Below, one piece after another: positions 5,786 through 63,053 of a stretch of DNA of 64,000 nt; the first letter of the stretch is position 1, and each line of letters begins with the position of its first letter. The stretch is taken from NCBI GenBank assembly GCA_963696395.1, contig CAVOJZ010000002.1, positions 363,989 through 427,988 on the forward strand. Reading direction: 5' to 3'. A program made the translations under genes and the position numbers. Source of the DNA: an uncultured bacterium. Lineage in GTDB: Bacteria; Patescibacteriota; Minisyncoccia; UBA6257; 2-01-FULL-56-20. The notes below the pieces were generated by a model. That model did no database searches and was not told the DNA's origin. It was given only the letters and a program-made list of their open reading frames with translations.

Positions 5786-7119
5786 ACTCAATGAACAGGC
5801 TCAAAGTATTTTTGTTTTTTGTCGGCGACGTGATCGCACTTTACGCCTCACTTTTTATTACCCTTTACATCCGTTACGGCAACTCGTTCTACGAACAATT
5901 CCTGGACAGCCACTTCGGCCCATTCAGTATTATTTTTGCTTTTTGGATTGCGCTCTTTTATATCGCCGGATTATACGACCTCCGTCGGCTTCGGAACAAC
6001 CTGAATTTTCTGAAAACGCTATCCTTGTCCCTTGTGATCAATGCCATCATTGCAGCGCTGCTTTTTTATTCCATCCCCGCGTTCGGCATCGCGCCAAAGA
6101 CCAATTTATTGATTTTTATCGCTATCTTCGCCGTCGTAGAAATTTTTTGGCGGCGGACCGCAAACCGCTTTATGACCTTCGGCGATGCACCTAATAAAGT
6201 GCTCATGGTCGGCAGTGGCGCCGTGGCACAGGAACTCAAGGCAACCATCCGCGAAAACTCCCAGCTTGGATATGAAATCAAAACCGAGCTGACCGACGAG
6301 CAGGCTTATGCCGCACCGGATTCCATCCGGACGATTGCCGAAAAGAACGGCATCAATCTTATCGTCGTACCCCATCAACTGAAGCGCGACGCACGGCTCG
6401 TGACGATTCTCTACGAACTCTTCGGTAGCGGAATTCTCATAACCGACCTCGTCGCATTCTACGAACTGGTGATGCGGAAAATTCCGCTCGCCCAGCTTGA
6501 AGAGGCATGGTTTCTCGAAAACATTGCTGCCGAAGTGCGCTTTTACGACCAGCTGAAGCGCGCGTCGGAATTTCTTGCAGCGCTCGCAATCGGCATCATC
6601 CTGCTTCCGTTTGAACTCCTGATTGCGATCATCATAAAACTCACATCCCGCGGACCGGTCATCTATAAACAAGTGCGCGTCGGCGAGAAAGAACGCGAAT
6701 TCACGCTCTATAAATTCAGGACGATGCGCGTGAACGCGGAGAAGGACGGAGCGGTCTGGGCCGGCGAGCGCGATCCGCGCGCAACGGCTTTCGGCCAGAT
6801 TCTGCGCATCTCGCACCTCGATGAATTGCCTCAACTTTGGAATATCGTGAAAGGCGACATCTCGTTTGTCGGCCCCCGGCCCGAACGGCCGGAGTTTGTG
6901 AAAAAACTCGAATCCGAAATCCCCTATTATGAAGTCCGCCTGCTCATTAAACCGGGTGTCACCGGATGGGCGCAGATCAATTACCATAAAGACACCGCAA
7001 CGGAAGACGTCATGCAAAAATTGCAATACGATATTTATTATCTAAAAAACCGCTCGATCATTTTGGATCTGGCGATTGTGCTGAAGACGCTGAGGTCGCT
7101 TTTTATCAACCCGGACTAG
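5782..7119 (+). CDS. polyprenyl-phosphate sugar phosphotransferase (bacterial sugar transferase, WbaP/CpsE-like initiating enzyme)
   Basis: N-terminal TM helices. The C-terminal domain reads KLTSRGPVIYKQVRVGEKEREFTLYKFRTM...DELPQLWNIVKGDISFVGPRPERPEF, the Bac_transf signature. Confidence 0.8.
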   Translation: MNSMNRLKVFLFFVGDVIALYASLFITLYIRYGNSFYEQFLDSHFGPFSIIFAFWIALFYIAGLYDLRRLRNNLNFLKTLSLSLVINAIIAALLFYSIPAFGIAPKTNLLIFIAIFAVVEIFWRRTANRFMTFGDAPNKVLMVGSGAVAQELKATIRENSQLGYEIKTELTDEQAYAAPDSIRTIAEKNGINLIVVPHQLKRDARLVTILYELFGSGILITDLVAFYELVMRKIPLAQLEEAWFLENIAAEVRFYDQLKRASEFLAALAIGIILLPFELLIAIIIKLTSRGPVIYKQVRVGEKEREFTLYKFRTMRVNAEKDGAVWAGERDPRATAFGQILRISHLDELPQLWNIVKGDISFVGPRPERPEFVKKLESEIPYYEVRLLIKPGVTGWAQINYHKDTATEDVMQKLQYDIYYLKNRSIILDLAIVLKTLRSLFINPD

Positions 7120-40795: not shown

Positions 40796-40924
40796 GTGAA
40801 TAATTAATAACTACGGGTTTCATTTATTTTTAATGACTTTTGATTACTCATATGATAGCCGTTTGGGGCGTCTCGGTCAAATCACGGAGCCTCTCGAATG
40901 GTTGGGTGAGAACGCGCTGATTGC

Positions 40925-40930
40925 GATATA
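40925..40930 (+). promoter_or_regulatory. -10 hexamer TATAAT 8 nt upstream of the gpmI ATG (leaderless-type promoter candidate)
   Basis: cgaTATAATaggtgcATG. Confidence 0.3.
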
Positions 40931-40938
40931 ATAGGTGC

Positions 40939-42474
40939 ATGGCAAAGAAAACAGCGATCCTTATCGTGCTCGACGGCTGGGGCATCGGGGCGAACAACGA
41001 ATCGAACCCTATCTATATCGTTAAGCCGCCGATCTTTGACTGGCTCGCGCAGAACTATCCGGTAACCAGCGTCCAGGCTTCGGGTATCGCCGTAGGCCTC
41101 CCATGGGGTGAAGTCGGCAATAGTGAAGTGGGTCACTTAACGATCGGCGCCGGAAAGGTGCTCTACCAATATTATCCGAAAATCACGATGGCGATCCGCG
41201 ACGGCAGTTTCGCACAAAACAAAGTTTTGAACGACGCGTTCGACCACGTGGTCAAAAATAACAGCGCCATCAATTTCGCCGGCCTTCTCACGAAGGCGAA
41301 TGTTCATGCGTCAATCGAGCATCTTGGAACGCTCATCAAACTTGCCGAGGAGCACGGGATCAAAAACATCAACCTTCATTTGTTTGCCGACGGAAAGGAC
41401 AGCCCCCCGCGTTCGCTCGAAAGTTTTTTGAAGGAAATTCCGAAACAATATCTCGCCTCGCTCGTCGGCCGCTACTACGGGATGGACCGCAACGGCAACT
41501 GGCGCCTCACGGAAACCTCCTACCAATTAATGCTCGGCAAACTCGGTCCCGTCGTGACCGACCCGACGCCGCTCATCGAAGCAACCTACAAGCAGGGCTC
41601 GACGGAAGAATATTTAACGCCGATGCGATTTTCCGAAGATAAAAAATTGCAGGACGGCGACGCGCTTATCTTCTTTAATTACCGGGAAGACAGCATCCGG
41701 CAGATCGCGGCATCGTTCATTGTGAAACCGTTCGACAAATTCCCGACGGTCCCCTTCGCCAATTTATATCTCGCGACCATGACGCACTACGATGATTCGT
41801 TCCAGGTGCCGATCATCTGCGAAGCTGACACCGTCACCGTTCCTCTCGGAAAAGTTCTGAGCGATAAAGGGTTCGCCCAGCTTCGCATCGCCGAAACCTA
41901 TAAGTACGCCCACGTCACCTATTTCTTTAACGGTCTCCGAGAACCGCCTTTCCCGGGCGAATACCGCACGCTCATCCCCTCAAACTCCAATCTTCATCCG
42001 GAAGAGCATCCGGAAATGATGGCAAGCGCGATTACCGACCGCCTCATCGAAGCCATCAACAGCAAGGGGTTCCAGTTCATCCTCGTTAATTATGCGAATG
42101 CCGACGCCATCGCGCACACGTCGGACTACAACGCAGCGCTCGAAGCGGTCCGGGTGATCGACCGTGAAATCACGCGCGTCCTTAAAGTCGCCGAAGACCC
42201 CGATATTCTGCTCATGATCACAAGCGACCACGGCAACATCGAAGAGATGATCGACATCATGACCGGCCTGCCCGAGAGCCAGCACGACGCGAGCCCGGTG
42301 CCGCTCTATATTGTGGCGGAGGAATTTAAGGGAAAGAAGTTCGTGAATGCCGATACGCGGGCCGAAGAAAGCCTTGGCTCGCTTGCAGACATCACGCCAA
42401 CCCTACTCGCCATTATGGGAATCGAGAAGCCGCCGGAAATGACCGGCGAGAGCATGCTTGGAGGATTGATTTGA
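40939..42474 (+). CDS. gpmI: 2,3-bisphosphoglycerate-independent phosphoglycerate mutase
   Basis: MAKKTAILIVLDGWGIG...NSEVGHLTIGAG is the iPGM signature. Confidence 0.9.
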   Translation: MAKKTAILIVLDGWGIGANNESNPIYIVKPPIFDWLAQNYPVTSVQASGIAVGLPWGEVGNSEVGHLTIGAGKVLYQYYPKITMAIRDGSFAQNKVLNDAFDHVVKNNSAINFAGLLTKANVHASIEHLGTLIKLAEEHGIKNINLHLFADGKDSPPRSLESFLKEIPKQYLASLVGRYYGMDRNGNWRLTETSYQLMLGKLGPVVTDPTPLIEATYKQGSTEEYLTPMRFSEDKKLQDGDALIFFNYREDSIRQIAASFIVKPFDKFPTVPFANLYLATMTHYDDSFQVPIICEADTVTVPLGKVLSDKGFAQLRIAETYKYAHVTYFFNGLREPPFPGEYRTLIPSNSNLHPEEHPEMMASAITDRLIEAINSKGFQFILVNYANADAIAHTSDYNAALEAVRVIDREITRVLKVAEDPDILLMITSDHGNIEEMIDIMTGLPESQHDASPVPLYIVAEEFKGKKFVNADTRAEESLGSLADITPTLLAIMGIEKPPEMTGESMLGGLI

Positions 42475-42500: not shown

Positions 42501-42690
42501 ACGCGGGACTTTGCTTGCGCGCGGACTTGTGCCGCAAACGGAAGCGAGAGGGAATGCATGAGCGAATAGAAAAAATGCGGGGTGCCCCCGCGCTTGTCGC
42601 GGATGGGCCGCATTTTTTCGTTACGAGCGAGCTGCATTTCCGGAGCTGGAGTTACTAGGCACAAGTCCGCGCGCAAGCAAAGTCCCGCGT
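42501..42690. repeat. 33-bp perfect inverted repeat pair (42501-42533 / 42658-42690) enclosing a 124-nt core that contains an A6-hairpin-T6 bidirectional-terminator-like stem-loop
   Basis: acgcgggactttgcttgcgcgcggacttgtgcc is exactly reverse-complemented at 42658-42690. The inner aaaaaatgcgg / ccgcatttttt arms sit at 42571-42581 and 42608-42618. The element fills the gpmI/holin-like intergenic space. Confidence 0.6.
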
Positions 42691-42692
42691 GG

Positions 42693-42698
42693 TATAAT
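42693..42698 (+). promoter_or_regulatory. -10 hexamer TATAAT 6 nt upstream of the ATG at 42705 (leaderless-type promoter candidate)
   Basis: ggTATAATcaatccATG, immediately after the right arm of the inverted repeat. Confidence 0.3.
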
Positions 42699-42704
42699 CA
42701 ATCC

Positions 42705-43073
42705 ATGCACTGGCTCATAAAAGCACTCATCGTCATCCTGGGCAACGCCCTCGCGCTGTGGCTCGCGTATCTTTGGGTGCCGGGATTTGTTTTGACCGCG
42801 AATTTTTTACAGCTCTTCGTGATTGGTATTATCCTTGCCGTCCTCAACTTTTTACTCAAACCACTCCTTGCGCTCGTTCTCGGTCCTATCATCCTTCTCA
42901 CGCTCGGACTCGGCATCATTATCGTGAACGCAATCATCCTTTATCTGCTTCCGATTCTCGCGGATCATCTTGACTTCCTACGTGGAAGCATTACCATTCA
43001 GAGCATTCCGGCGCTCTTCCTCGCAACCATAATCGTAAGCGTCGTCAATTTCTTAATTCATCTCATTGCATAG
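42705..43073 (+). CDS. small 4-TM membrane protein (DUF360 / phage-holin-family-4-like)
   Basis: 122 aa from the internal ATG: MHWLIKALIVILGNALALWLAYLWVPGF..., with four hydrophobic helices. Confidence 0.35.
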   Translation: MHWLIKALIVILGNALALWLAYLWVPGFVLTANFLQLFVIGIILAVLNFLLKPLLALVLGPIILLTLGLGIIIVNAIILYLLPILADHLDFLRGSITIQSIPALFLATIIVSVVNFLIHLIA

Positions 43074-45159: not shown

Positions 45160-45243
45160 GCCGGGGTGGCGGAACTGGCAGACGCACTGGTTTCAGGTAC
45201 CAGCGGCCGCAAGGCCATAGGAGTTCGAATCTCCTCCTCGGCA
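45160..45243 (+). tRNA. tRNA-Leu (anticodon CAG), type II with 15-nt variable arm
   Basis: Manual fold: acceptor GCCGGGG/CCTCGGC (one G-U pair), D-stem GCG/CGC, anticodon stem CTGGT/ACCAG, loop TTCAGGT, variable arm cGGCCgcaaGGCCat, T-arm AGGAG-TTCGAAT-CTCCT. No CCA is encoded. Confidence 0.8.
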
Positions 45244-45293
45244 CACAGGCAGATCGCGACAAACAAACTAATTAAAAATAAATTAACCAACAA

Positions 45294-47246
45294 TTGCAGA
45301 TGAATAAAAAAACTGAAAGTCAAAAAATAGAGCCCCAGTCGGCCTCCATTACGGAACGGCCGCGTATACGGCCGCCCGAGATCCGGCCGCGCCCGGCAAC
45401 GCCCGCTGCTCCTGCGCATACCCAGCCAAAGGCTCCGTCCGAAGGACGACCGGCTCGCAAACCGGGCGGCGGACACCGCCCGCCCCGCGGCGCCCGCACA
45501 CCGGCGCCGGGCAAATCAAACAATCCAAAGCTTGGTCCTCGCCGCGAATCACAGCCGCAACAGGCTGTCGTACAGCAGGCAAACGGCGAAGCTGTCCGCT
45601 TTGTGCCGCTTGGCGGCCTCGAAGAGGTCGGCCGCAACTGTATGTTTCTTGAATATAAAAATGAAATCGTAATCATTGATGTCGGTTTGCAGTTCCCCGA
45701 AGAGGAAACGCCCGGCATTGATTACATCATTCCGAACATCCAGTATCTCGAAAAGAAAAAAGAAAATATCGCCGCGATCATCCTGACGCACGGCCATTAC
45801 GACCATATCGGTGCCTTGCCACATCTGCTCGCCAAGCTCGGCAATCCCCCGATCTACGCGACCTCGATCACAAAAGCGATAATCGAGAAGCGCCAGGAGG
45901 ATTTTCCAAATTCCCCAAAGATGAACGTGCTCACCGTGAAGAACGGCAGCGACGTAAAAGTCTCAAATAACTTCAGCGCACTGTTCTTCGGCGTGCCGCA
46001 TACGATCCCCGAAACCACGGGCGTCCTCATGCGCACACCGGCGGGCAACATCGTGCACTTTGCGGACTTCCGCGTTGACTACAACGACGAAGGCGAGCCG
46101 CAAGGCCTCGATGAATTTGAAAAAATCGGCAAGATGGGCGTCCACAGTTTTATGGTGGACAGCACGAACGCCGAAAAGCCGGGGCATTCCGTTTCCGAAA
46201 AAACCGTCGAGCGAAATCTTGAAGAAATTTTCAAGAAAGCCGAAGGCCGAATCATCGTGGCAACATTCGCGTCGCTTCTCACGCGCATCGCGGAAATCAT
46301 TAAGATCGCGGAAAAACTCGGCCGCAAAGTTGCGCTCAACGGCTATTCCATGAAGACGAATATCCAGATTGCGCAGACGCTCGGCTTCGTTAAAGCAAAA
46401 GAAGGCACCATCATCGCCGTCGAGGAGGTGAACAAGATGAAAGACGACAAAATTCTCATCCTTTCCACCGGCGCCCAGGGCGAATCGAACGCCGGCCTCA
46501 TGAAGATGATCAACGGCGAACATCGCCACATCAAGATCAAGCCGGGCGATACAATGGTGCTTTCATCGTCCATCATTCCGGGCAATGAAAAGAGCGTGCA
46601 GACCGTGAAAGACAATCTCGCCCGCCAAGGCGCAATCGTTTACCATTCATCCCTCGTGGACATCCACTCTTCCGGCCACGCGCCGAAAGACGATTTGAAG
46701 CTCGTGATGAAACTCATCAATCCGAAATTCCTCGTGCCGGTGCACGGCTACTACTTCATGCGCGCCGCGAACGGCCTCTCCGCACGCGAAGTCGGCATCC
46801 CGAAGGAAAATATCATGCTCATGGACAACGGCCAGGTTGCCGAGCTCACGCAAGATAAATTCATCGTCACCAAAGAAGAAGTGCCGGCGTTCTACGTGAT
46901 GGTTGACGGCCTCGGCGTTGGCGACGTGGAGGAAGTTGTTTTGCGTGACCGCCGCGCGCTCTCGCAGGAAGGCATGATTGTGATCATCCTCACCATGGAT
47001 CGCGACAAGGGGCGCGTCCTCAAAAATCCGGACATCATTTCCCGCGGTTTCATCTACCTCAAAGAAAACCAGGAGATGCTCGACGAAATCCGCAAACGCA
47101 TCCGCGGTCTCATGCAGCGCCTGCCGTCATATCGCGAAGTTGAACCCGATTATCTGAAGACGCTCATCCGCGACCAGGTCGGGCAATACCTCTACACGAA
47201 GACCAAGCGCCGCCCGATGATTCTGCCGGTCATCATTGAGATATAG
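45294..47246 (+). CDS. rnj: ribonuclease J (metallo-beta-lactamase/beta-CASP) with ~95-aa Pro/Arg/Ala-rich N-terminal extension
   Basis: FVPLGGLEEVGRNCMFLEY...ILTHGHYDHIGALP is the RNase J core. The N-terminus is low-complexity (RPRIRPPEIRPRPATPAAPAHTQPKAPSEGRPARKPGGGHRPPRGART). Confidence 0.85.
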   Translation: MQMNKKTESQKIEPQSASITERPRIRPPEIRPRPATPAAPAHTQPKAPSEGRPARKPGGGHRPPRGARTPAPGKSNNPKLGPRRESQPQQAVVQQANGEAVRFVPLGGLEEVGRNCMFLEYKNEIVIIDVGLQFPEEETPGIDYIIPNIQYLEKKKENIAAIILTHGHYDHIGALPHLLAKLGNPPIYATSITKAIIEKRQEDFPNSPKMNVLTVKNGSDVKVSNNFSALFFGVPHTIPETTGVLMRTPAGNIVHFADFRVDYNDEGEPQGLDEFEKIGKMGVHSFMVDSTNAEKPGHSVSEKTVERNLEEIFKKAEGRIIVATFASLLTRIAEIIKIAEKLGRKVALNGYSMKTNIQIAQTLGFVKAKEGTIIAVEEVNKMKDDKILILSTGAQGESNAGLMKMINGEHRHIKIKPGDTMVLSSSIIPGNEKSVQTVKDNLARQGAIVYHSSLVDIHSSGHAPKDDLKLVMKLINPKFLVPVHGYYFMRAANGLSAREVGIPKENIMLMDNGQVAELTQDKFIVTKEEVPAFYVMVDGLGVGDVEEVVLRDRRALSQEGMIVIILTMDRDKGRVLKNPDIISRGFIYLKENQEMLDEIRKRIRGLMQRLPSYREVEPDYLKTLIRDQVGQYLYTKTKRRPMILPVIIEI

Positions 47247-47422: not shown

Positions 47423-48409
47423 ATGAAACAAGTTCTCGTATCAGGGATGCAGCCAACCGGCCGATTGCACATCGGCAATTATTTGGGCGCTCTCAAAAAT
47501 CTTGTGGACCTGCAAAACTCAGGAAAGTACGATTGTTACTTCCCCGTTGTGGACCTCCATTCGATCACTGAAAATTTCAGTCCGAAAGAAAAAACGCAGC
47601 AAATCCTTTCGCTCGCCGCCGATTACCTCGCTGCCGGGCTCGACCCGAAAAAATCCACCATTTTTCTCCAATCGCATGTTGCGGCGCATTCCGAACTCGC
47701 ATGGATTTTAAGTACCGTCGCGCCGATGGGCGAACTCGAGCGAATGACGCAATTTAAGGACAAGGCGAGCCGGCAAGCGCTGAACATCAATGTCGGCCTT
47801 TTTACGTATCCCGTGCTCATGGCTGCGGACATCGTCCTTTATAATGCGACCGCAGTCCCCGTTGGCGACGACCAACTCCAACACCTCGAACTCACGCGAA
47901 CGCTTGCCCGCAAATTTAACACCCGCTTCGGTGAAACCTTTATCGAGCCGAAAGGCGTTACCACCCAGACGTCACGGGTGATGAGCCTGAAAGACCCTTC
48001 AAAGAAAATGTCGAAGTCGCAGCCGGAAGGTTGTTTATTCCTCGACGATACGCCGAAAGAGATTGCCGAGAAGATTGCGCGGGCCGTCACAGACTCCGGA
48101 TCGGAGATTGATTATAATCCGGAGAAAAAACCCGGTCTTTCAAATCTGCTTGAGATATACGGCGCGCTCACCCACATGGAGCCGAAGATGGTTGCAAAAG
48201 AATTCGCCGGCGAAAAATATTCCGATCTCAAAAAACGCCTTGCGGAGGTTGTAGTGGACTATTTCGCGGAATACCGTGAACGAAAACTGGAATTGTTTTC
48301 GCACCCAAAGAAGCTTTTGGCAATCCTTCAGGATGGATCAAAAAAAGCGGCGAAAGTAGCCGACAAAAAGATGGAAGAGGTGCGGAAAAAAATCGGGATC
48401 GCGCTTTAG
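47423..48409 (+). CDS. trpS: tryptophanyl-tRNA synthetase
   Basis: [17 protein letters not shown] (HIGH) and KMSKS motifs, 328 aa. Confidence 0.9.
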
Positions 48410-48411
48410 CG

Positions 48412-51400
48412 TTATACCTTTCGAATTGCAACCCACGCCTCCTGCCCCTCAATCTGCGTCGCCTGCTCCGCGATAAACTTATCCGACCGCTTGTATTCAA
48501 TTGCCTTTGCACCGACTTCGGCCTTGAACAACGCCTCATTATTTTCTATCGCCGTTTTGGCGTCGCCTTGCAGTTGAAGTAAAACGGCAATTCTGTCTTT
48601 CGGCGAAAGCCCGGCCTTCTGCCGCAATTCCTGCACCATACGCACAAAATCACGCAACAACCCTTCCTGCCGCAGAGCGGGCGTTATCGTTGTATCGAGC
48701 TCACAGGCCTCCGCCATTAAGCGGGCCTTGGCTGGCGGCACCACCAAAACTTTTTTCACGTTCACTTCGTCGGCCAAAATTGCAAGCAGGGGTTTAAGGG
48801 ATTTTAATGTCTGATCTTTCACCCGAAACTCCGCGAGCGGCTGGCGCACTTTGATTCCCGCTTCCGAACGCTTCCCGAGCCCGTGCGCCGCAAGATCTCT
48901 GACCGCTTTCATTCCCGCAATCATTTTTTTATCAACCGCTTTTTTATCCGCGGACGGCCAGGCGTCCAGATGAACCGACTCGAACGCTCCGCCAAGCGGT
49001 GCATACAAGATTTCCGAAAAGAATGGCGTGAATGGTGCCATCAGTTTCACGAGCGTGAGCAACGCGTGTCCGAGCATCGCCGATGCGGCTTTGTAATCGG
49101 CTGCGTTATCGGGTTTTTGGAGTCTCCGACGAGAGCGACGGATATACCATCGGGAAAGATCGTCAACGAGCGTTTCGATTTCAAGGGCGGCTTCGCGAAT
49201 CTCATATTGGTTTACATGTTCAGTCACCGAAAGGGTCGCTTCATTCAGCCGAGCAAAAATCCATGCGTCGAGTGCGTTTTTTGTACTGATCGCTCTGGCT
49301 TTCTGGTCGGCGTAGGTTCTCCAGAAAATAAATGAGTTGTAGACAATGAGATGCACGCGCCGAAAAGCTTTTGCAACTTCGCGGTCATCGAAATTTTTCG
49401 GCTCGCCAAGCGGAACGCTCGTATAGAAATACCACCTGAGCGCATCCACGCCCTGAGCGTCGATCATCGAAAACGGTTCGACAATGTTGCCCTTTGACTT
49501 GGACATCTTCTGCCCGAATTTGTCATTGATAAGGCCGAGCGCCACAACGTTCTTGTAGGGTGCCTGATAGCCAAGCGCTGTTGCGATGGCAAGAAGTGTA
49601 TAGAACCAGCCCCTCGTCTGATCCATACCTTCGGCAATATATTCCGCCGGATAATCGAGTTTTGATAATGTTTTAGCTCCGACGTTTTTACCTTCTGCCG
49701 CCACGCTGAACGGATAATGAGACTGTGCATACGGCATTGCTCCCGAGTCGTACCAGACGTCGGCGACTTCGCGGACCCGCTTCATGATTCCTTTTTTGCA
49801 ATGAGCACATGGGAAATCGATCGTGTCCGCGAATGGCCGGTGGAGGTCAACTTCGCCCGTGTCGTTTCGGGGAACCACCTTCACGCGCAAACTGCGGATC
49901 TCTGCAAAACCGATAAAGTCGTCACCGCGCGCTTCCTTCTCGACAACCGCGCGCTTCTTGCTCCACCCTTCCGCCGCCTGCGTAAGCATCCACGTTGGAT
50001 ATTCATGCGTCACGAGCAGGATATTTTTGCCTTCATGCTTCGCCTCGCATTTTTTTATAAACTCCCACGTGCGGGTTCGAAGATCAACCAACGACTCCCC
50101 TCCCTCCGGCCGCTCCGCAAACCGCGATTCATAGGTCGGAAACATCTCGCCGTATTTCTTATCTTTATATCCCGTAAGTTTCGGCCCCAAATGAATTTCT
50201 TCGATCGCCGAATCAAGCATTGGCTTCACGCCCAAAATTTCGCCGACGATAGCCGCCGTTTCCATGGTTCGTGCAACGTCAGAATCAATAAGCACATCGA
50301 TTTTCGCGCGATGCTTGCCGAGTGACTTCTTAAATTCCTCCGCCGCCTTCGCAGCCTGTTTTTTGCCGCGTGGGGTAAGCTTTAAGTTTTTCCGTTGACC
50401 CGAATCGATAATATGAAATACGTTTGCCTCGGATTCGCCGTGCCGCATAATCCAATAGTTATTCTTTGAACCGCCCGCGAGTTCATCCAACGAATCCAGA
50501 CTCGAAACGACATCGGTGTGCCCGCACGATGCACATTCCCAGATGGGAAGCGGAGCGCCCCAATAACGCTCCCTCGAAAGATTCCAATCTTTTGCCTCCT
50601 TAATCCATTCGCCAAATCTGCCGTCTTTCACGTGTTCGGGCATCCAGTTGATGGTTTTATTTCGGGCCATGAGCTCCTTTCGCAAACCGCTCATGCCGAT
50701 AAACCACGACGTTCGGGCGTAATATAAAATTGCCGTTCCACAGCGCCAACAATATGGATATTCGTGAGTGTAAGTTTCGGTTCGCAAAAGATTTCCATTC
50801 GCCTTGAGATGGGCGAAAATCTTTTCCTCGGCGTCCTTCGACTTCACGTACAATCCCGCAAGTCCTTTCACGTCCGCTTTAAACTTTCCCTCTTCATCAA
50901 CCGTATGCTTTTCCGGAAGACCTATTCGTTTTCCGAGTGCATAGTCATCTTCGCCGTACATCACGGCAGTATGCACGACGCCGGTGCCGTCGGTCGTCGT
51001 CACAAAATCAGCAGGATACACCTTGTACGACGACGACGTTTTGAGGGCAGGGACAGCAAAAAGCGGTTCGTATTCCAATCCCACCAATTGCGAGCCTGTG
51101 ATTTTTCGCGGAGCGCTTCCGCCATCGAGACCCAAGTCTTTCAGCCGATCCTCCGCTGCGATCAAGTATTCCCCGTCTTTTTCCACGGCGTAATACGGTA
51201 TCTTCGGGCCAACCGCAAGCGCGACGTTTCCCGGCAACGTCCAAGGGGTTGTCGTCCACGACAATATATATATTTTGTCCGAAGGTTCAATTGTATGATC
51301 GCCAATCTTTTGCCCGGGTTTTAATCTAAATTTAACGTACACCGAATTATCCACGGTTTCCTTATATCCCTGAGCGAGCTCGTGCGAAGAAAGCGACGTT

Positions 51401-51981
51401 CCACACCGCGTGCACCACGGCACGACTTTATGCCCTTTATAGAGCAATTTTCGTTTTGAAATCTCGCTCAACGTCCACCATAGCGTCTCAATATATTCCG
51501 GTTCGTAGGTGATGTAGGCATTTTTTAGATCCAGCCAATACCCGATCCGGTTGGTAAGCTTTTCCCAATCATCTTTATAAAGCCACACCTGTTCTTTTGC
51601 CTTTTCGTTAAAAAGCTTGATGCCGAATTTTTCGATTTCTTTTTTCGATTTAAGTCCAAGCGCTTTTTCCGCGGCCATCTCCACCGGAAGGCCATGCGTG
51701 TCCCATCCCGCACGGCGCGGAACAAAATATCCCTGCATCGTTTTATAACGCAGGACCACATCCTTCACGACACGCGAAAGCACGTGATGAATGCCCGGCT
51801 TGCCGTTGGCGTACGGCGGACCTTCGTAGAAAATAAACTTCTTCCTTGCCGGCTTGGCCAGCGATTTTTCAAAAATATGTTCCGCATTCCAAAAATCCAA
51901 AACTTTTTCCTCGAGTTTTGGGAGGTTAAATTCGCCTTCTAAAAAATGATGTGCGGTTTTTTGTTTTGGCTTCCGTGGCAT
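48412..51981 (-). CDS. ileS: isoleucyl-tRNA synthetase carrying an inserted histidine-phosphatase (PGAM-like) domain
   Basis: PPYANGKPGIHH (HIGH variant), WDTHGLPVE, Zn-ligand pairs flanking CP1 (CTRC...CWRC), QKMSKSKGN, and an anticodon-binding region. It is 1189 aa, against roughly 900-1050 for typical IleRS. The extra ~230 aa (residues ~495-725) contain IMRHGESEAN, LTPRGKKQA, SDVARTMETA and LLVTHEYP. Confidence 0.9.
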   Translation of the reverse strand: MPRKPKQKTAHHFLEGEFNLPKLEEKVLDFWNAEHIFEKSLAKPARKKFIFYEGPPYANGKPGIHHVLSRVVKDVVLRYKTMQGYFVPRRAGWDTHGLPVEMAAEKALGLKSKKEIEKFGIKLFNEKAKEQVWLYKDDWEKLTNRIGYWLDLKNAYITYEPEYIETLWWTLSEISKRKLLYKGHKVVPWCTRCGTSLSSHELAQGYKETVDNSVYVKFRLKPGQKIGDHTIEPSDKIYILSWTTTPWTLPGNVALAVGPKIPYYAVEKDGEYLIAAEDRLKDLGLDGGSAPRKITGSQLVGLEYEPLFAVPALKTSSSYKVYPADFVTTTDGTGVVHTAVMYGEDDYALGKRIGLPEKHTVDEEGKFKADVKGLAGLYVKSKDAEEKIFAHLKANGNLLRTETYTHEYPYCWRCGTAILYYARTSWFIGMSGLRKELMARNKTINWMPEHVKDGRFGEWIKEAKDWNLSRERYWGAPLPIWECASCGHTDVVSSLDSLDELAGGSKNNYWIMRHGESEANVFHIIDSGQRKNLKLTPRGKKQAAKAAEEFKKSLGKHRAKIDVLIDSDVARTMETAAIVGEILGVKPMLDSAIEEIHLGPKLTGYKDKKYGEMFPTYESRFAERPEGGESLVDLRTRTWEFIKKCEAKHEGKNILLVTHEYPTWMLTQAAEGWSKKRAVVEKEARGDDFIGFAEIRSLRVKVVPRNDTGEVDLHRPFADTIDFPCAHCKKGIMKRVREVADVWYDSGAMPYAQSHYPFSVAAEGKNVGAKTLSKLDYPAEYIAEGMDQTRGWFYTLLAIATALGYQAPYKNVVALGLINDKFGQKMSKSKGNIVEPFSMIDAQGVDALRWYFYTSVPLGEPKNFDDREVAKAFRRVHLIVYNSFIFWRTYADQKARAISTKNALDAWIFARLNEATLSVTEHVNQYEIREAALEIETLVDDLSRWYIRRSRRRLQKPDNAADYKAASAMLGHALLTLVKLMAPFTPFFSEILYAPLGGAFESVHLDAWPSADKKAVDKKMIAGMKAVRDLAAHGLGKRSEAGIKVRQPLAEFRVKDQTLKSLKPLLAILADEVNVKKVLVVPPAKARLMAEACELDTTITPALRQEGLLRDFVRMVQELRQKAGLSPKDRIAVLLQLQGDAKTAIENNEALFKAEVGAKAIEYKRSDKFIAEQATQIEGQEAWVAIRKV

Positions 51982-52023
51982 ACCTCATAAAATACCAGAA
52001 AAAACGGCTCTCGGAAAGCGGGG

Positions 52024-53745
52024 CTAGATTTTTTCCGGCGCTTCGATGCCAAGCAGTCCGAGCCCCGAACGAAGCGTCCGGGCGGCTACAGCAACTAGCA
52101 TCAGGCGGGCGTCGCGCCGCTTTACGTCTTCATCTTTCAATATAGGCGTCGTTTCATAGAACTTGTTTGCGGCGACGGCGAGCTTGTAGAGATAGGTTGC
52201 AAGCGTACTCGTGGCGTACAATCCGGCGGCCTTCTCCACGACTTCAGGAAATTCAAAAATCTTCCGAATGAGGCCGAGTTCGACATCGGATTCCAGAAGC
52301 GACGCGTCGGCTTTCGTGATTTTCGATTCGACGAGTTCTGATTTGCGGATAATACTGCGCAAGCGCGCGTACGCGTATTGCAGATATGGTCCGCTGTCGC
52401 CGCTCCAATCGAGCATTTTCTCCCAGTCGAAAACAATGTCGGTCATGCGATTCTCCTTGAGGTCGTTGTAACGCAAGGCACCGATCCCGACGGCGCGCGC
52501 GACGCCATCTTTTTCTTTGGCGGAAAGATCTTTGTTTTTTTCTTCAACGGTTTTCCGCGCAAGCGTGACGGCTTTTTCAATAACCTGCTTCATGGAAACA
52601 CTTCTCCCTTCGCGGGTCGAAAGCTTTTTGCCGCTATCGCCAAGGACGAGACCGTATTTCAAATGCACGAGTTCGGCAGCGTTCCACTTGAGTCGCGCCG
52701 CGATCGCAAAAAGCTGCTCGAAATGCAAAGCCTGCTCGTTTGCGACGACATAAAGAATTTTGGCGGGTTTATATTTTTTCAGGCGGTATTCGAGGTTCGC
52801 TATATCGCGGGTAAGATAGAGGCTTGCGCCGTCTGATTTCTCGATAAGCGCCGGCGGAAGGTTTTCTTCGTCGAGCTTCACGACGAGCGCTCCTTCGCTT
52901 CTTTCCGCGATCTGCTTATCAACCAATTCCTGCGTGGCCGGCTTCAGTGCGTCTTCAAAAAAACTTTCGCCGACCCATACATCAAAATCAACACCAAGTA
53001 TCTTATACATCGCCTTGAATTCAGTGAGGGATTCTTTCTTAAACCATTCCCATAATTTTCTGTTTTCCCGGTCGCCGGTTTCGAGCTTCTTAAATTCCTC
53101 CTGGCCGCGCTTTTCGAGTTCAGGATCCGTTTTTGCCTCTTCGTGAAACCGCACGTACAATCTCTGCAGCTCTTCGACCGGCTGCTTCTCGACGTCTTCT
53201 TTTTTGCCCCACAATTTATATGCAGCAATCAACTTTCCAAACTGTGTTCCCCAATCGCCAAGATAATTCCAACGCACCACTTTATATCCGGAAAATTCGA
53301 GTAGGCGCGCAAGAGCGTCGCCGATGATCGTTGTACGAAAATGGCCGAGATTCATCGTCTTTGCGATGTTTACCGATGAATATTCCACGATAACTTTCTT
53401 CCCGGCGCCATGCTTATTTGCACCGAAATGCTTATCGCGCGCAACGCGGGCAAATTCAGCTTGCAGCGTTTTCTCGCTTAACCAAAAATTAATGAATCCC
53501 GGCGGTTCGGCTTGGACTTTTTCAAAAAATCCCGCGGGAGCCGCAGCGGTTATTTTCCCGGCGAGCCCATGCGCCAATTCAACAGGCTTCTTTCCTTGTG
53601 TCTTCGCGAGCCGCATCGCCAGATTCGTAGAATAGTGCCCGAATTGGCTGTCTTCCGGAACCGAAAGCGATGTCGCAATTATTTCGGGGCTAGGAATGTC
53701 GTGCCTGAGTGTTTTCTCTAAAATTTCGATTATGGCGGCTTTCAT
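52024..53745 (-). CDS. argS: arginyl-tRNA synthetase
   Basis: The N-terminal Arg-tRNA-binding domain, then VEYSSVNIAKTMNLGHFRTTIIGDALARL (HIGH-region variant), then the DALR anticodon-binding region. Start at the internal ATG at 53745. Confidence 0.85.
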   Translation of the reverse strand: MKAAIIEILEKTLRHDIPSPEIIATSLSVPEDSQFGHYSTNLAMRLAKTQGKKPVELAHGLAGKITAAAPAGFFEKVQAEPPGFINFWLSEKTLQAEFARVARDKHFGANKHGAGKKVIVEYSSVNIAKTMNLGHFRTTIIGDALARLLEFSGYKVVRWNYLGDWGTQFGKLIAAYKLWGKKEDVEKQPVEELQRLYVRFHEEAKTDPELEKRGQEEFKKLETGDRENRKLWEWFKKESLTEFKAMYKILGVDFDVWVGESFFEDALKPATQELVDKQIAERSEGALVVKLDEENLPPALIEKSDGASLYLTRDIANLEYRLKKYKPAKILYVVANEQALHFEQLFAIAARLKWNAAELVHLKYGLVLGDSGKKLSTREGRSVSMKQVIEKAVTLARKTVEEKNKDLSAKEKDGVARAVGIGALRYNDLKENRMTDIVFDWEKMLDWSGDSGPYLQYAYARLRSIIRKSELVESKITKADASLLESDVELGLIRKIFEFPEVVEKAAGLYATSTLATYLYKLAVAANKFYETTPILKDEDVKRRDARLMLVAVAARTLRSGLGLLGIEAPEKI

Positions 53746-53963
53746 AGGTGATATTTGACGTGCCCTCGGCAACAAGGATAATGATGGTGGGCGGCGGCTG
53801 ATGCTTTCTCTTCCCACTAGAGACAAGCATGGCAAGTGTTCCTTTCCGGGTCGCTGCCCATTATTTCTTACCGCTCTTTGTCCATTGCCCGGCTTACCTT
53901 AGTAAAAATACATCGAAACGAGTTCTATAACAAACCGTGGCGCACAAAGCCCGGTTTTTAGTT

Positions 53964-53974: not shown

Positions 53975-54412
53975 ATGGAGCCAATCGCGGAAAATCGGCG
54001 GGCACGCTTCGATTATGAAATCTCGGACACCTTCGAGGCGGGCATTGAGTTGCGCGGACACGAAGTGAAAAGTGTGAAAGCGGGACATTTCCAAATCGCA
54101 GGAGCCAGAGTTTTGATCCGCGGCGGCGAAGCGTGGCTTGTGAATTCACACATTCCACCGTATCAACCAAAAAATATGCCCGCAGGATATGAAGAAGATC
54201 GCACACGCCGCCTCCTGCTGACGAAGGATGAGATAAATACTCTCACCGGATCATTGCAGGAGAAAGGAAATCTTTTGATACCGTTGCAGGCATATCTCAA
54301 GCATCATTTCATTAAACTGCAGCTCGGGCTCGGCCGGACGCGCAAGAAATCCGACAAACGCGAAGTCCTGAAAAAGCGCTCGCACGACCGCGAAATGCGG
54401 TCCGAAGCATAG
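53975..54412 (+). CDS. smpB: SsrA-binding protein SmpB
   Basis: ENRRARFDYEI...GIELRGHEVKSVK...LLL is the canonical SmpB sequence. Confidence 0.9.
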   Translation: MEPIAENRRARFDYEISDTFEAGIELRGHEVKSVKAGHFQIAGARVLIRGGEAWLVNSHIPPYQPKNMPAGYEEDRTRRLLLTKDEINTLTGSLQEKGNLLIPLQAYLKHHFIKLQLGLGRTRKKSDKREVLKKRSHDREMRSEA

Positions 54413-62789: not shown

Positions 62790-62880
62790 GCCGTGGGTAC
62801 AGGATTCGAACCTGCGTAGCCGCTAAAACGCCGCTATCTCGTCCCTAAGACGAGTGCGTTCAACCCCTCCGCCAACCCAC
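62790..62880 (-). tRNA. tRNA-Leu-like (anticodon UAG), unusually long (~91 nt) with ~22-nt variable region
   Basis: Manual fold of the reverse complement: acceptor CGTGGGT/ACCCACG perfect, TG, D-stem GCG/CGC, anticodon stem CTCGT/ACGAG with loop CTTAGGG, T-arm GCAGG-TTCGAAT-CCTGT, discriminator G. No CCA is encoded. Confidence 0.55.
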
Positions 62881-63053
62881 GGTTATTTCTGTTTCTTTCC
62901 TTTCTTGCGCTTCTTGCCTTCGGGAGAGGCGTTGAGCAATCGGTAAATGTTTAGAAAGAGTTAAACAATATTATTTCTAATCGTATAAAAAAGGCGCACG
63001 ACCGTCATATACTATGACGCGTACGCCTTTGCTAAAGTTTCCCTCTTGAGGGG

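What the first reader, a model, noticed from the sequence alone, without database searches (positions are those of the whole stretch)
49807..50499. Complete histidine-phosphatase (PGAM-like) domain embedded inside isoleucyl-tRNA synthetase
IleS is ~1189 aa. An extra ~230-aa block sits between the CxxC halves of a zinc knuckle (WECASCGH ... FPCAHCKK) just before the conserved DVWYDSG segment. The block contains every catalytic motif of histidine-phosphatase branch 1. IMRHGESEAN matches the PGAM signature [LIVM]-x-R-H-G-[EQ]-x-x-x-N exactly. LTPRGKKQA matches LTxxGxxQA. SDVARTMETA matches SxxxRAxxTA. LLVTHEYP is a variant of the V[SA]HGG motif region, with the second catalytic His; HE stands in place of the canonical HG. 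Such conservation argues for an active phosphomonoesterase rather than a structural relic. I know of no description of an aaRS with an inserted PGAM-family enzyme. What it does is speculative: it could act on tRNA ends, on nucleotide by-products, or on something unrelated.
Basis: partly seen in the sequence, partly recalled or inferred. Interest (0 to 1): 0.85.

Follow-up and report, generated by a model that had tools for sequence, protein, structure and literature searches.

The report
Active phosphatase nested inside isoleucyl-tRNA synthetase
The enzyme that loads isoleucine onto tRNA in this tiny-genome (Patescibacteria/CPR) bacterium carries a complete, apparently active phosphatase folded into one of its surface loops. 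The same two enzymes are paired, as one protein or as adjacent genes, across hundreds of related uncultured bacteria, which points to an undescribed working partnership whose substrate is still unknown.

Summary
Window 48412..51981 (-) is one uninterrupted 1189-aa type-2 IleRS (TIGR00392, 826 bits). It carries a complete branch-1 histidine phosphatase (Pfam His_Phos_1, E=9e-29, aa 510-676) in the loop of the Cys4 zinc module before DVWYDSG. About 200 aa (504-703) replace a ~9-aa loop of T. thermophilus IleRS.

It is not an artefact. The identical protein comes from two independent assemblies, and the fusion recurs in frame in over 100 loci, including 24 GTDB species representatives, all Patescibacteria.

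Catalytic residues are near-invariant across 84 distinct proteins whose inserts are about 35% identical (R513, H514, R571, H659 84/84; E595 83/84). The insert is as conserved as the editing domain.

The pairing takes several forms. Nealsonbacteria and Minisyncoccales have a free-standing phosphatase gene abutting an insert-less ileS (5/5 sampled). Other proteins carry the domain in other loops, in tandem copies, or four times in a ValRS.

Fold neighbours are small-molecule phosphatases (GpgP, PspA, PhoE), not mutases, and the window encodes its own iPGM.

No publication was found. The substrate is unknown. This is a new variant of aaRS with an accessory catalytic domain.

The parts
48412..51981 (-). 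ileS: 1189-aa type-2 isoleucyl-tRNA synthetase with a nested phosphatase, in one uninterrupted frame
   Evidence: ORF list. TIGR00392 ileS 825.7 bits. Pfam tRNA-synt_1, Anticodon_1 and DUF5915. AF2 model pLDDT 86.3; Foldseek top hits are IleRS2 8C8W/8C8U and 1ILE.
51784..51795 (-). Class I signature motif in its non-canonical form GIHH (aa 63-66), in place of HxGH
   Evidence: Translation. The clade is mixed: HYGH 29, GIHH 27, and others. G/AXHH is the IleRS2 mupirocin hyper-resistance motif (PMC10485003).
50518..50541 (-). First half of the Cys4 zinc module, WECASCGH (C483, C486)
   Evidence: Translation. Cys conserved in 72/84 fusion proteins. Aligns to the CQAC of T. thermophilus IleRS.
49873..50472 (-). 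Inserted histidine-phosphatase domain, aa ~504-703 (Pfam core aa 510-676 = 49954..50454)
   Evidence: His_Phos_1 E=9.3e-29. Replaces residues 478-486 of 1ILE. Insert-only AF2 model pLDDT 86.4, pTM 0.85. Foldseek hits are GpgP, PspA, Rv3214 and PhoE.
50437..50445 (-). RHG motif: R513, nucleophile H514, G515 (N520 at 50422..50424)
   Evidence: Translation. R513 84/84, H514 84/84, G515 83/84, N520 81/84.
50269..50271 (-). R571, second phosphate-binding arginine (SDVARTMETA)
   Evidence: 84/84 conserved.
50197..50199 (-). E595, predicted general acid/base (EEIHLGP)
   Evidence: 83/84 Glu and 1 Asp. Aligns to the REIHLG Glu of PhoE 1EBB.
50005..50007 (-). H659, second catalytic histidine (VTHEYP)
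   Evidence: 84/84 conserved. The next residue is E in 62, D in 9 and G in 9.
49798..49809 (-). Second half of the Cys4 zinc module, CAHC (C725, C728)
   Evidence: Translation. Cys in 71/84 and 69/84.
49741..49761 (-). DVWYDSG strand of the second half of the Rossmann fold, immediately after the zinc module
   Evidence: D741 and W743 84/84.
49495..49509 (-). KMSKS catalytic loop
   Evidence: K825 and K828 84/84. The host synthetase keeps its own active-site motifs.
52024..53835 (-). argS (ArgRS), 42 nt upstream of ileS. In the adjacent-gene lineages the free-standing phosphatase gene sits exactly between argS and ileS
   Evidence: Pfam. Synteny in L001-L003, L026 and L112-L114.

Best explanation
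**Shown.** The gene encodes the housekeeping type-2 IleRS of a Patescibacteria (Paceibacterota/Parcubacteria-type) bacterium. An independently folding branch-1 histidine phosphatase of about 200 aa is nested in the loop of the Cys4 zinc module, which is the last connective peptide of the Rossmann fold and probably CP3.

The insert has the full catalytic set: R513 and H514 (nucleophile), N520, R571, E595 (acid/base) and H659. These residues are essentially invariant in 84 diverged fusion proteins. The host keeps its own GIHH and KMSKS motifs and its editing motifs, so the polypeptide is predicted to be bifunctional.

The insert belongs to a CPR-specific clade of phosphatases that is persistently coupled to class Ia editing synthetases in several forms:
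- a separate gene abutting or overlapping the start of ileS;
- a nested domain in at least four different loops;
- two to three copies in one IleRS;
- four copies in one ValRS.

**Inferred.** The domain works by the standard two-step phospho-histidine mechanism as a phosphomonoesterase, not a mutase. It most likely acts on a small phosphorylated metabolite or nucleotide. Physical or translational coupling to IleRS ensures stoichiometric co-production and proximity, and not precise channelling from the synthetic site. The reasons are that the attachment point varies widely and that the enzyme also works as a separate protein. The substrate is not identified.
For: **Domain identity and position:**

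**Fold:**. Structural neighbours are small-molecule phosphatases (GpgP/Rv2419c, PspA, Entamoeba PSP, Rv3214, PhoE, riboflavin-pathway HFP). No protein phosphatases appear in the top 50. Sequence neighbours in the PDB are PhoE, PspA and GpgP.

**Catalytic conservation:**. All extra copies in variant proteins keep RH[G/A/T][E/Q], and every complete copy also keeps the second His.

**Selection:** the conservation index of the insert (0.55-0.57) equals that of the editing domain (0.56) and the C-terminal part (0.57). Insert identity tracks host identity (r=0.71). For the closest pair, pN is 0.11 against pS 0.66, giving dN/dS of about 0.08.

**Recurrence:**
- 24 of 26 genome loci from GTDB species representatives are fused, plus at least 80 metagenome loci (333 confirmed candidates).
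- About 100 are in-frame long ORFs.
- All of the top 120 protein clusters carry PF00300.
- The identical protein comes from a second assembly.

**Gene-neighbour form:** L026 and L111-L114, 5/5 sampled, overlapping or abutting ileS, and retained when the upstream flank differs.

**Mutual exclusivity:** only 1 of 106 fused loci has an extra short copy nearby.

**Other sites, copies and ValRS:**

**Not the glycolytic mutase:** an iPGM is encoded at 40921..42474, and the dPGM equivalog scores are far below cutoff (63 against 225).
Against: No substrate is identified and no activity was measured.

The inference of a small-molecule substrate rests only on nearest structural and sequence relatives. 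These share 22-26% identity in the Foldseek alignments, and specificity in this superfamily is notoriously hard to predict.

Repeated insertion specifically into IleRS and ValRS, in loops of the catalytic half, is not obviously explained by a generic metabolite phosphatase. It could instead mean a macromolecular substrate bound to the synthetase, such as tRNA or the synthetase itself.

I could not obtain model coordinates, so the distance and orientation between H514 and the synthetic or editing sites, or the tRNA path, are unknown.

The NJ trees have no support values.

Only 64 kb of the genome was visible, so a second ileS or other phosphatases elsewhere cannot be excluded.
Confidence: 0.55

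Rival explanations
1. tRNA-end phosphatase. The domain removes a 2'- or 3'-phosphate (or the terminal phosphate of a pyrophosphorylated CCA end) from tRNA bound to IleRS or ValRS. It thereby restores an aminoacylatable A76, giving a synthetase-coupled tRNA repair or anti-toxin activity.
For: The association is specific to class Ia editing synthetases that hold the tRNA 3' end (IleRS; ValRS). All insertion sites lie in the catalytic half or at its junction with the anticodon-binding domain. A large bound tRNA could be reached from several attachment points and by a separate subunit. The window insert and the ileS-adjacent free-standing proteins are basic: pI 9.0 for the window insert, 9.9 for the L026 protein, and a median of 9.2 for the close free-standing representatives.
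Against: No member of the histidine phosphatase superfamily is known to me to act on RNA ends (own knowledge), and no such paper was found. Across the 84 fusion proteins the insert is not consistently basic (median pI 6.7). Up to three or four copies per polypeptide is odd for a substrate with a single 3' end. The nearest structures are small-molecule enzymes.
Confidence: 0.18
2. Hitch-hiking housekeeping enzyme. The phosphatase has a metabolic job unrelated to aminoacylation, and IleRS is merely a permissive, constitutively expressed carrier in streamlined genomes.
For: ileS operons in other bacteria contain functionally unrelated genes, for example ribF-ileS-lspA in E. coli (own knowledge). 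The domain is functional as a separate protein. The variable insertion sites argue against precise geometric coupling. Other foreign domains also land in these proteins: a GNAT and a Y1 transposase-like domain in P0291, and NCBIfam has an 'ileS_w_GNAT' model.
Against: The pairing persists over deep divergence (inserts down to ~35% identity) and in three architecturally different forms. It survives a change of the upstream flank in L111. It has arisen at several sites and in ValRS. Nesting a gene that lies upstream into an internal loop is not what simple read-through fusion produces. All of this suggests selection for the linkage itself.
Confidence: 0.17
3. Cis-acting protein phosphatase. The domain reverses inhibitory phosphorylation of IleRS itself, for example of the KMSKS-loop serine by a HipA/HipT-like toxin kinase, making the synthetase self-repairing.
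For: HipA and HipT kinases inactivate the class I synthetases GltX and TrpS by phosphorylating a serine in or near the KMSKS region, and the superfamily includes protein phosphatases such as PGAM5, Sts and SixA (own knowledge). All insertion sites cluster around the second half of the Rossmann fold, on either side of KMSKS.
Against: No IleRS-directed kinase is known. No protein phosphatases appear among the top 50 structural neighbours. The SixA equivalog does not match the window insert.
Confidence: 0.06
4. Cofactor-dependent phosphoglycerate mutase. The insert supplies the glycolytic PGM step.
For: The Pfam family is shared with dPGM. There are weak NCBIfam matches to dPGM models. dPGMs and BPGM appear in the Foldseek list.
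Against: dPGM equivalog scores are far below cutoff (dPGM_arch 63.3 against 225; GpmB 38.3 against 261). The FTGW-type mutase segment is absent on direct reading of RHGESEANVFHIIDSGQRKNLKLT (motif recalled from memory). The closest relatives are phosphatases. The window already encodes an iPGM at 40921..42474.
Confidence: 0.02
5. Assembly chimera or pseudogene. The frame is an artefact joining two genes.
For: Three related contigs (L001-L003) show the gene broken into pieces.
Against: Those breaks are frame shifts scattered over the whole gene in error-prone assemblies, and the pieces are collinear with aa 1-1189. The identical 1189-aa protein occurs in two independent assemblies. About 100 loci hold the fusion as one long ORF. 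There is no composition break.
Confidence: 0.01

Closest known systems
Type-2 (eukaryote-like, mupirocin-resistant) bacterial IleRS, e.g. T. thermophilus 1ILE and Priestia megaterium IleRS2 8C8U/8C8W
   Same: Same overall fold and domain order (Foldseek TM 0.76-0.87 normalised to target). Same Cys4 zinc module before DVWYDSG. The same non-canonical G/AXHH signature motif has been described for hyper-resistant IleRS2.
   Different: About 200 extra residues forming a whole second enzyme replace a ~9-residue loop of the zinc module. Neither the 2023 IleRS2 phylogeny paper nor the 2026 IleRS domain-architecture preprint mentions such an insert.
PhoE / PspA / GpgP-type branch-1 histidine phosphatases (1EBB/1H2E, 4IJ5, 4PZ9, 6S2Q)
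   Same: Same fold (TM ~0.7) and catalytic residues, and similar size (~200 aa).
   Different: Only 22-26% identical in the Foldseek alignments. Nested inside another enzyme or encoded next to it. Forms its own CPR-specific clade in a rough tree. The HE(Y/x)P motif usually replaces HG after the second His. Substrate unknown.
NCBIfam NF040702 'isoleucine--tRNA ligase, N-acetyltransferase domain-containing' (ileS_w_GNAT)
   Same: A precedent for an IleRS carrying a foreign catalytic domain. One relative found here (P0291) has both a phosphatase and a GNAT.
   Different: Different enzyme family. The window protein scores 300 bits against a cutoff of 1999 for that model and has no GNAT.
NCBIfam NF005567 bifunctional RNase H/acid phosphatase (Rv2228c type)
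   Same: Another fusion of a CobC/PhoE-like histidine phosphatase to a nucleic-acid enzyme. The window insert matches its phosphatase half (E=2.9e-17).
   Different: That fusion is end-to-end, not nested in a loop, and has a different partner. The score is far below cutoff (63 against 326).

Membership tests
Histidine phosphatase superfamily, branch 1 (Pfam PF00300) | Significant match to the family profile over most of its length | tested here: met
   E=9.3e-29, 100.9 bits against a cutoff of 21.7, profile positions 2-164 of 194.
Histidine phosphatase superfamily, branch 1 (Pfam PF00300) | Catalytic core: RHG with nucleophilic His, second Arg, acid/base Glu, second His | tested here: met
   R513, H514, R571, E595 and H659 are present and conserved in 83-84 of 84 proteins. 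They align to the PhoE and PspA motifs.
Histidine phosphatase superfamily, branch 1 (Pfam PF00300) | Alpha/beta fold of the family | tested here: met
   AF2 pLDDT 86.4, pTM 0.85. Foldseek probability 1.00 and TM ~0.7 to GpgP, PspA and PhoE.
Histidine phosphatase superfamily, branch 1 (Pfam PF00300) | Phosphomonoesterase activity through a phospho-histidine intermediate | not testable with these tools
   Needs an enzyme assay.
Cofactor-dependent phosphoglycerate mutase (dPGM, GpmA/GpmB) | Reaches the curated equivalog score | tested here: not met
   dPGM_arch 63.3 against 225; GpmB 38.3 against 261; PRK01295 24.7 against 316.
Cofactor-dependent phosphoglycerate mutase (dPGM, GpmA/GpmB) | Needed as the organism's glycolytic mutase | tested here: not met
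   An iPGM (Metalloenzyme + iPGM_N) is encoded at 40921..42474.
Isoleucyl-tRNA synthetase (TIGR00392), type 2 | Reaches the ileS equivalog score; class I motifs; CP1 editing domain; type-2 C-terminal domains | tested here: met
   825.7 bits against 621.4. GIHH and KMSKS are present. The WTTTPWTLPGN and GTGVVHTAV editing motifs can be read in the ORF. Anticodon_1 and DUF5915 are present. Best structural matches are IleRS2.
Isoleucyl-tRNA synthetase (TIGR00392), type 2 | Aminoacylation of tRNA-Ile | not testable with these tools
   Inferred from the motifs and from this being the only ileS seen in the window. The rest of the genome was not visible.
ileS_w_GNAT (NF040702) | Curated score and presence of a GNAT domain | tested here: not met
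   300.2 bits against 1999. No GNAT Pfam hit.
Alpha-ribazole phosphatase CobC (TIGR03162) | Curated equivalog score | tested here: not met
   50.1 bits against 162.9.
Phosphoserine phosphatase PspA (NF045917) | Curated equivalog score | tested here: not met
   51 bits against 350. PspA is nonetheless among the closest structures.

The most novel reading that the evidence does not exclude
The CPR 'synthetase-associated histidine phosphatase' is a dedicated partner of class Ia editing synthetases that acts on the macromolecular substrate they hold. One possibility is removing a blocking 2'- or 3'-(pyro)phosphate from the tRNA CCA end. Another is dephosphorylating the synthetase's own catalytic loop. 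Either would be a previously unknown synthetase-coupled repair or anti-toxin step in translation, evolved repeatedly as a nested domain, as tandem arrays and as an operon partner.
Probability: 0.2. Interest if true: 0.9.

Novelty: new variant of a known kind. Interest (0 to 1): 0.68.

Why it matters
Aminoacyl-tRNA synthetases are among the best-studied enzymes, and their accessory domains (editing, tRNA-binding, signalling) have repeatedly revealed new biology. Here a second, apparently active enzyme of a family never linked to translation is nested in the catalytic core of an essential synthetase across a large part of the Patescibacteria.

The same pairing shows up as an operon, as insertions in several loops, as multi-copy arrays and in ValRS. 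Recurrence of that kind is the classic signature of a functional link, as in Rosetta-stone fusions.

Identifying the substrate would either uncover a new step coupled to tRNA charging (repair, detoxification or regulation) or show how ultra-small genomes package housekeeping enzymes. It also flags a systematic annotation gap, because hundreds of these proteins are labelled only as tRNA ligases.

The question is directly testable with recombinant protein.

Tried and rejected
1. **Chimeric assembly or frameshift.** Rejected.

2. **Mobile-element or intein-like insertion.** There are no flanking direct repeats. The only bracketing 10-nt inverted pair is at chance level, with about 0.8 such pairs expected in 1.3 kb by my own estimate. 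Reading the borders shows no intein-type Cys/Ser...HN junctions.

3. **Glycolytic mutase.** Rejected.

4. **Charge test for RNA binding.** Inserted domains have a median pI of 6.7 with a wide spread, distant free-standing homologues 5.6, and close CPR free-standing ones 9.2. The test was not discriminating.

5. **Recent intragenic duplication as the source of multi-copy forms.** Copies within one protein are only 21-48% identical, no closer than copies between proteins.

6. **First protein search with the insert alone.** It returned only three frameshifted fragments and gave a false impression of rarity. Pattern scans and the full-length search corrected this.

7. **First exact look-up of the window protein.** It failed because I omitted the stop codon. 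The protein is in the collection as P0054.

8. **AFDB fold search.** The library was unavailable.

9. **Model coordinates.** They are not exposed, so active-site distances could not be measured.

10. **Literature.** Eight searches and three papers read found no description of the fusion. One search was rejected for syntax.

11. **Taxon names for the variant proteins.** Not obtainable.
Full report
**1. The observation**

Window 48412..51981 on the minus strand is a single open frame of 1189 codons. The finding's coordinates, 49807-50499, are residues 495-725 of that protein.

Pfam finds tRNA-synt_1 in two pieces (2.6e-108). Between them lies His_Phos_1 at residues 510-676 (E=9.3e-29, 100.9 bits against a gathering score of 21.7), followed by Anticodon_1 and DUF5915. 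NCBIfam's ileS equivalog scores 825.7 bits against a cutoff of 621.4. Base composition runs smoothly through the block, and there are no meaningful repeats at its borders.

**2. Where exactly the insert sits**

Against T. thermophilus IleRS (PDB 1ILE), residues 16-499 align to 6-477 and residues 710-1041 align to 487-819. So about 210 residues stand where Thermus has about nine. This is inside the module formed by C483/C486 (WECASCGH) and C725/C728 (CAHC), immediately before the DVWYDSG strand.

An insert-less relative (P0322...GSLIELQKKSQKELPRNDAGEVDLHRPYID...) shows that PRNDTGEVDLHRPF belongs to IleRS. The foreign block is therefore about residues 504-703, window 49873..50472.

In the current IleRS nomenclature (CP core, CP1/editing, CP2, CP3; PMC11685878), this last connective peptide is presumably CP3. 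That assignment is my inference.

**3. Not an artefact**

- The identical 1189-aa protein (P0054) is on a 913,682-bp contig, and also on an independently assembled 16.8-kb Logan contig with the same ArgRS and TrpRS neighbours.
- A pattern scan with an alignment of the insert found 26 loci in GTDB species-representative genomes. All are labelled Patescibacteria, Parcubacteria, Paceibacterota, 'Saccharibacteria', Peribacteria or unclassified 'bacterium' MAGs.
- The same scan found 333 confirmed places in JGI and ENA metagenomes, of which 80 were kept.
- In about 100 of the 109 loci the phosphatase lies in one long ORF (about 1130-1320 codons stop to stop where the contig holds the whole gene), flanked in frame by the IleRS N-terminal and C-terminal parts.
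- Three contigs in which the gene is fragmented (L001-L003) are collinear with residues 1-1189 and differ only by scattered frame shifts, as in error-prone assemblies.
- All 120 best protein clusters from a full-length search carry PF00300. Their sources call them 'isoleucyl-tRNA synthetase' or 'class I tRNA ligase family protein'.

**4. Is the phosphatase likely active?**

Conservation in 84 distinct full-length fusion proteins, whose inserts fall to about 35% identity:

| Residue | Conserved |
|---|---|
| R513 | 84/84 |
| H514 | 84/84 |
| G515 | 83/84 |
| E516 | 83/84 |
| N520 | 81/84 |
| T536 | 84/84 |
| G539 | 84/84 |
| S567 | 84/84 |
| R571 | 84/84 |
| E595 | 83/84 (plus one Asp) |
| E629 | 82/84 |
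| H659 | 84/84 |

The mean column conservation of the insert (0.55-0.57) equals that of the editing domain (0.56) and the C-terminal part (0.57). Insert identity tracks host identity (r=0.71), as expected for old, vertical co-inheritance. For the closest relative (L030), pN is 0.113 against pS 0.663 in the insert, giving dN/dS of about 0.08, the same as the flanks.

AlphaFold2 gives a confident full-length model (pLDDT 86.3, pTM 0.78), with the 500-710 block at 85-97. The insert alone gives a confident model too (pLDDT 86.4, pTM 0.85).

The host also keeps its own catalytic motifs. KMSKS has K825 and K828 in 84/84, and D741 and W743 are 84/84. The polypeptide is therefore predicted to be bifunctional.

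**5. What kind of phosphatase**

- Sequence neighbours in the PDB are PhoE (1EBB, 1H2E), the PspA phosphoserine phosphatase (4IJ5) and the glucosyl-3-phosphoglycerate phosphatase (4PZ9).
- Foldseek with the insert model ranks GpgP and related mycobacterial hydrolases, PspA, Entamoeba PSP, Rv3214, PhoE and the Aquifex riboflavin-pathway HFP (9MMH) at TM ~0.7. True mutases mostly rank behind these, and no protein phosphatases appear in the top 50.
- All curated NCBIfam equivalogs (dPGM, GpmB, CobC, PspA) are far below their cutoffs.
- The window itself encodes a cofactor-independent phosphoglycerate mutase at 40921..42474, so the insert is not needed as the glycolytic mutase.

The domain is best described as a PhoE/PspA/GpgP-like phosphomonoesterase of unknown specificity.

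**6. The association goes well beyond this gene**

(a) *Adjacent-gene form.* In L026 (Ca. Nealsonbacteria), a 198-aa histidine phosphatase gene (5992..6588) ends 6 nt before the start of a 944-aa IleRS that lacks the insert, and ArgRS lies upstream. This phosphatase defines a large family: 299 proteins at E<=1e-10, in Nealsonbacteria and Minisyncoccales, one of which JGI even names 'isoleucyl-tRNA synthetase'.

Four diverged members on long contigs were sampled. All four lie directly upstream of an insert-less ileS (949-987 aa), overlapping or abutting it. In L111 the upstream flank is entirely different, yet the pair is kept.

(b) *Mutual exclusivity.* Of 106 loci with a fused long ORF, only one has an additional, more distant short phosphatase ORF within the flanks. 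In the window ArgRS is 42 nt upstream of ileS, which is exactly where the free-standing gene sits in the adjacent-gene lineages.

(c) *Other sites and copy numbers.* An exhaustive HMMER search of 1.84 billion cluster representatives gave 327 hits at E<=1e-10. Most of the best 150 are IleRS-length proteins or fragments of them. Among them:

| Protein | What it carries |
|---|---|
| P0322 | Intact zinc module; phosphatase in the loop between ...FFVTYAN and LDHWI, just before the anticodon-binding domain |
| P0235 | Phosphatase domains at both sites |
| P0285 | Domains after the second CxxC, in the loop between HYPF and FIAEGLDQTRGW, and the start of a third at the pre-anticodon site |
| L029 (Peribacteria) | Two tandem domains at site 1 |
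| P0246 | A ValRS (valS 411 bits against ileS 199) with four phosphatase domains |
| P0291 | An IleRS with a phosphatase, a GNAT acetyltransferase and a REP-associated tyrosine-transposase-like domain |

Every copy keeps RH[G/A/T][E/Q], and every complete copy also keeps the second His. The fourth copy in P0246 is cut off by the end of the sequence before that point. Copies within one protein are only 21-48% identical.

(d) *Relationships.* In a rough NJ tree, the site-1 inserts and the CPR free-standing proteins (including the ileS-adjacent ones) group apart from generic PhoE-like proteins. In an IleRS-body tree, the adjacent-gene and fused forms are interspersed. Neither tree has support values.

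**7. Mechanism**

*Shown:* the anatomy, conservation, recurrence and linkage described above.

*Inferred:* the domain hydrolyses a phosphomonoester through a phospho-H514 intermediate. R513, R571, N520 and H659 hold the phosphate and E595 acts as acid/base, as established for the superfamily (for example PhoE and dPGM).

Three facts make precise channelling from the synthetic site unlikely: the attachment point varies, the copy number ranges from one to four, and the enzyme also exists as a separate, translationally coupled protein. What seems to be selected is co-production and proximity with a class Ia editing synthetase.

My leading reading (about 0.55 including the generic parts) is a small-molecule or nucleotide phosphomonoesterase functionally tied to IleRS. 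The rivals are:

| Rival | Probability |
|---|---|
| tRNA-end phosphatase | ~0.18 |
| Unrelated hitch-hiking enzyme | ~0.17 |
| Cis-acting protein phosphatase countering HipA-like phosphorylation of the KMSKS region | ~0.06 |
| Mutase | ~0.02 |
| Artefact | ~0.01 |

A charge test for RNA binding was inconclusive. I could not measure distances in the model because coordinates are not exposed.

**8. Comparison with what is known, and novelty**

Both parts belong to well-known families, and membership is met for His_Phos_1 and for type-2 IleRS. Foreign catalytic domains in IleRS have a database precedent in NCBIfam NF040702 'ileS_w_GNAT', although the window protein fails that model.

No paper describing an aaRS-histidine phosphatase fusion or operon was found in the searches. 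The two most relevant IleRS evolution and architecture papers do not mention it, and a third paper proved unrelated.

The architecture is plentiful in sequence databases but unnamed. I therefore rate it a new variant of a known kind: a synthetase with an accessory catalytic domain, here an enzyme family not previously connected to translation.

**9. Side observation on the host**

The class I signature motif is GIHH, not HxGH (51784..51795). The clade is split between HYGH-type and G/AXHH-type motifs. G/AXHH is the motif shown to confer mupirocin hyper-resistance on IleRS2 (PMC10485003).

Noticed in passing
window 51784..51795 (-), aa 63-66 of IleRS: The class I signature motif is the non-canonical GIHH, not HxGH. 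Among 84 fusion relatives the motif is HYGH in 29, GIHH in 27, GVHH in 5, A[ILM]HH in 9, and others. G/AXHH is the motif reported to give IleRS2 mupirocin hyper-resistance (PMC10485003). Patescibacteria were not mentioned in the passages I searched in that paper.
   Followed up: partly
window 40921..42474 (+): A cofactor-independent phosphoglycerate mutase (Metalloenzyme + iPGM_N) lies ~6 kb from ileS. The genome therefore has its own glycolytic mutase, independent of the dPGM-like insert.
   Followed up: yes
window 47423..53835: Three class I synthetase genes sit side by side: trpS (47423..48409, +; convergent with ileS, stops 2 nt apart), ileS, and argS (52024..53835, -). smpB follows at 53975..54412. 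The argS-ileS-smpB arrangement is conserved in many relatives.
   Followed up: partly
window 45294..47246 (+): The RNase J ORF has a ~100-aa Pro/Arg/Ala-rich low-complexity N-terminal extension before the metallo-beta-lactamase domain, if the TTG start is real. It may be an over-extended ORF or a CPR-specific tail.
   Followed up: no
P0246 (ENA, contig 3.9 kb; not in the window): A ValRS (valS 411 bits) has four histidine-phosphatase domains inserted around the CP2/CP3 region. The protein is cut off by the end of the contig. This shows the phenomenon is not restricted to IleRS.
   Followed up: partly
L117 5001..8201 (P0291, JGI Ga0450804_3685082): An IleRS N-terminal part carries a REP-associated tyrosine-transposase-like (Y1_Tnp) domain inside CP1. 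It also has a site-1 phosphatase, and a GNAT acetyltransferase in the loop after HFPFEN. The ORF stops after the GNAT, so the gene may be split or frameshifted.
   Followed up: partly
L116 5001..8822 (P0322, GCA_021733565.1 JAKFZD010000009.1): An IleRS with an intact zinc module has the phosphatase in a different loop, just before the anticodon-binding domain. Its neighbours are uvrB, uvrC, mgtC and a DUF3566 protein, a context unlike the CPR loci. The host taxon could not be determined.
   Followed up: partly
L029 4300..8817 (Peribacteria MAG CAYGDT010000004.1): A 1506-codon ORF (stop to stop) encodes an IleRS with two tandem phosphatase domains at site 1 and no cysteine zinc knuckle.
   Followed up: partly
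L111 1..4353: In one adjacent-gene contig, a bAvd-like gene, a reverse transcriptase (RVT_1) and a 1015-aa protein lie immediately upstream of the phosphatase-ileS pair. This looks like a diversity-generating retroelement.
   Followed up: no
window 42582..43073 (+): A small membrane protein matches Phage_holin_4_2 (E=2.4e-14) between the iPGM and an SBP_bac_5 solute-binding protein.
   Followed up: no
window 45160..45244 (+) and 62790..62881 (-): Two tRNA-Leu genes (anticodons CAG and TAG) are the only RNA genes detected in the 64 kb. There is no rRNA.
   Followed up: no
P0408: JGI names a free-standing 197-aa histidine phosphatase 'isoleucyl-tRNA synthetase'. This is presumably annotation transfer from the fused proteins, and it shows how the fusion propagates mis-annotation.
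   Followed up: no
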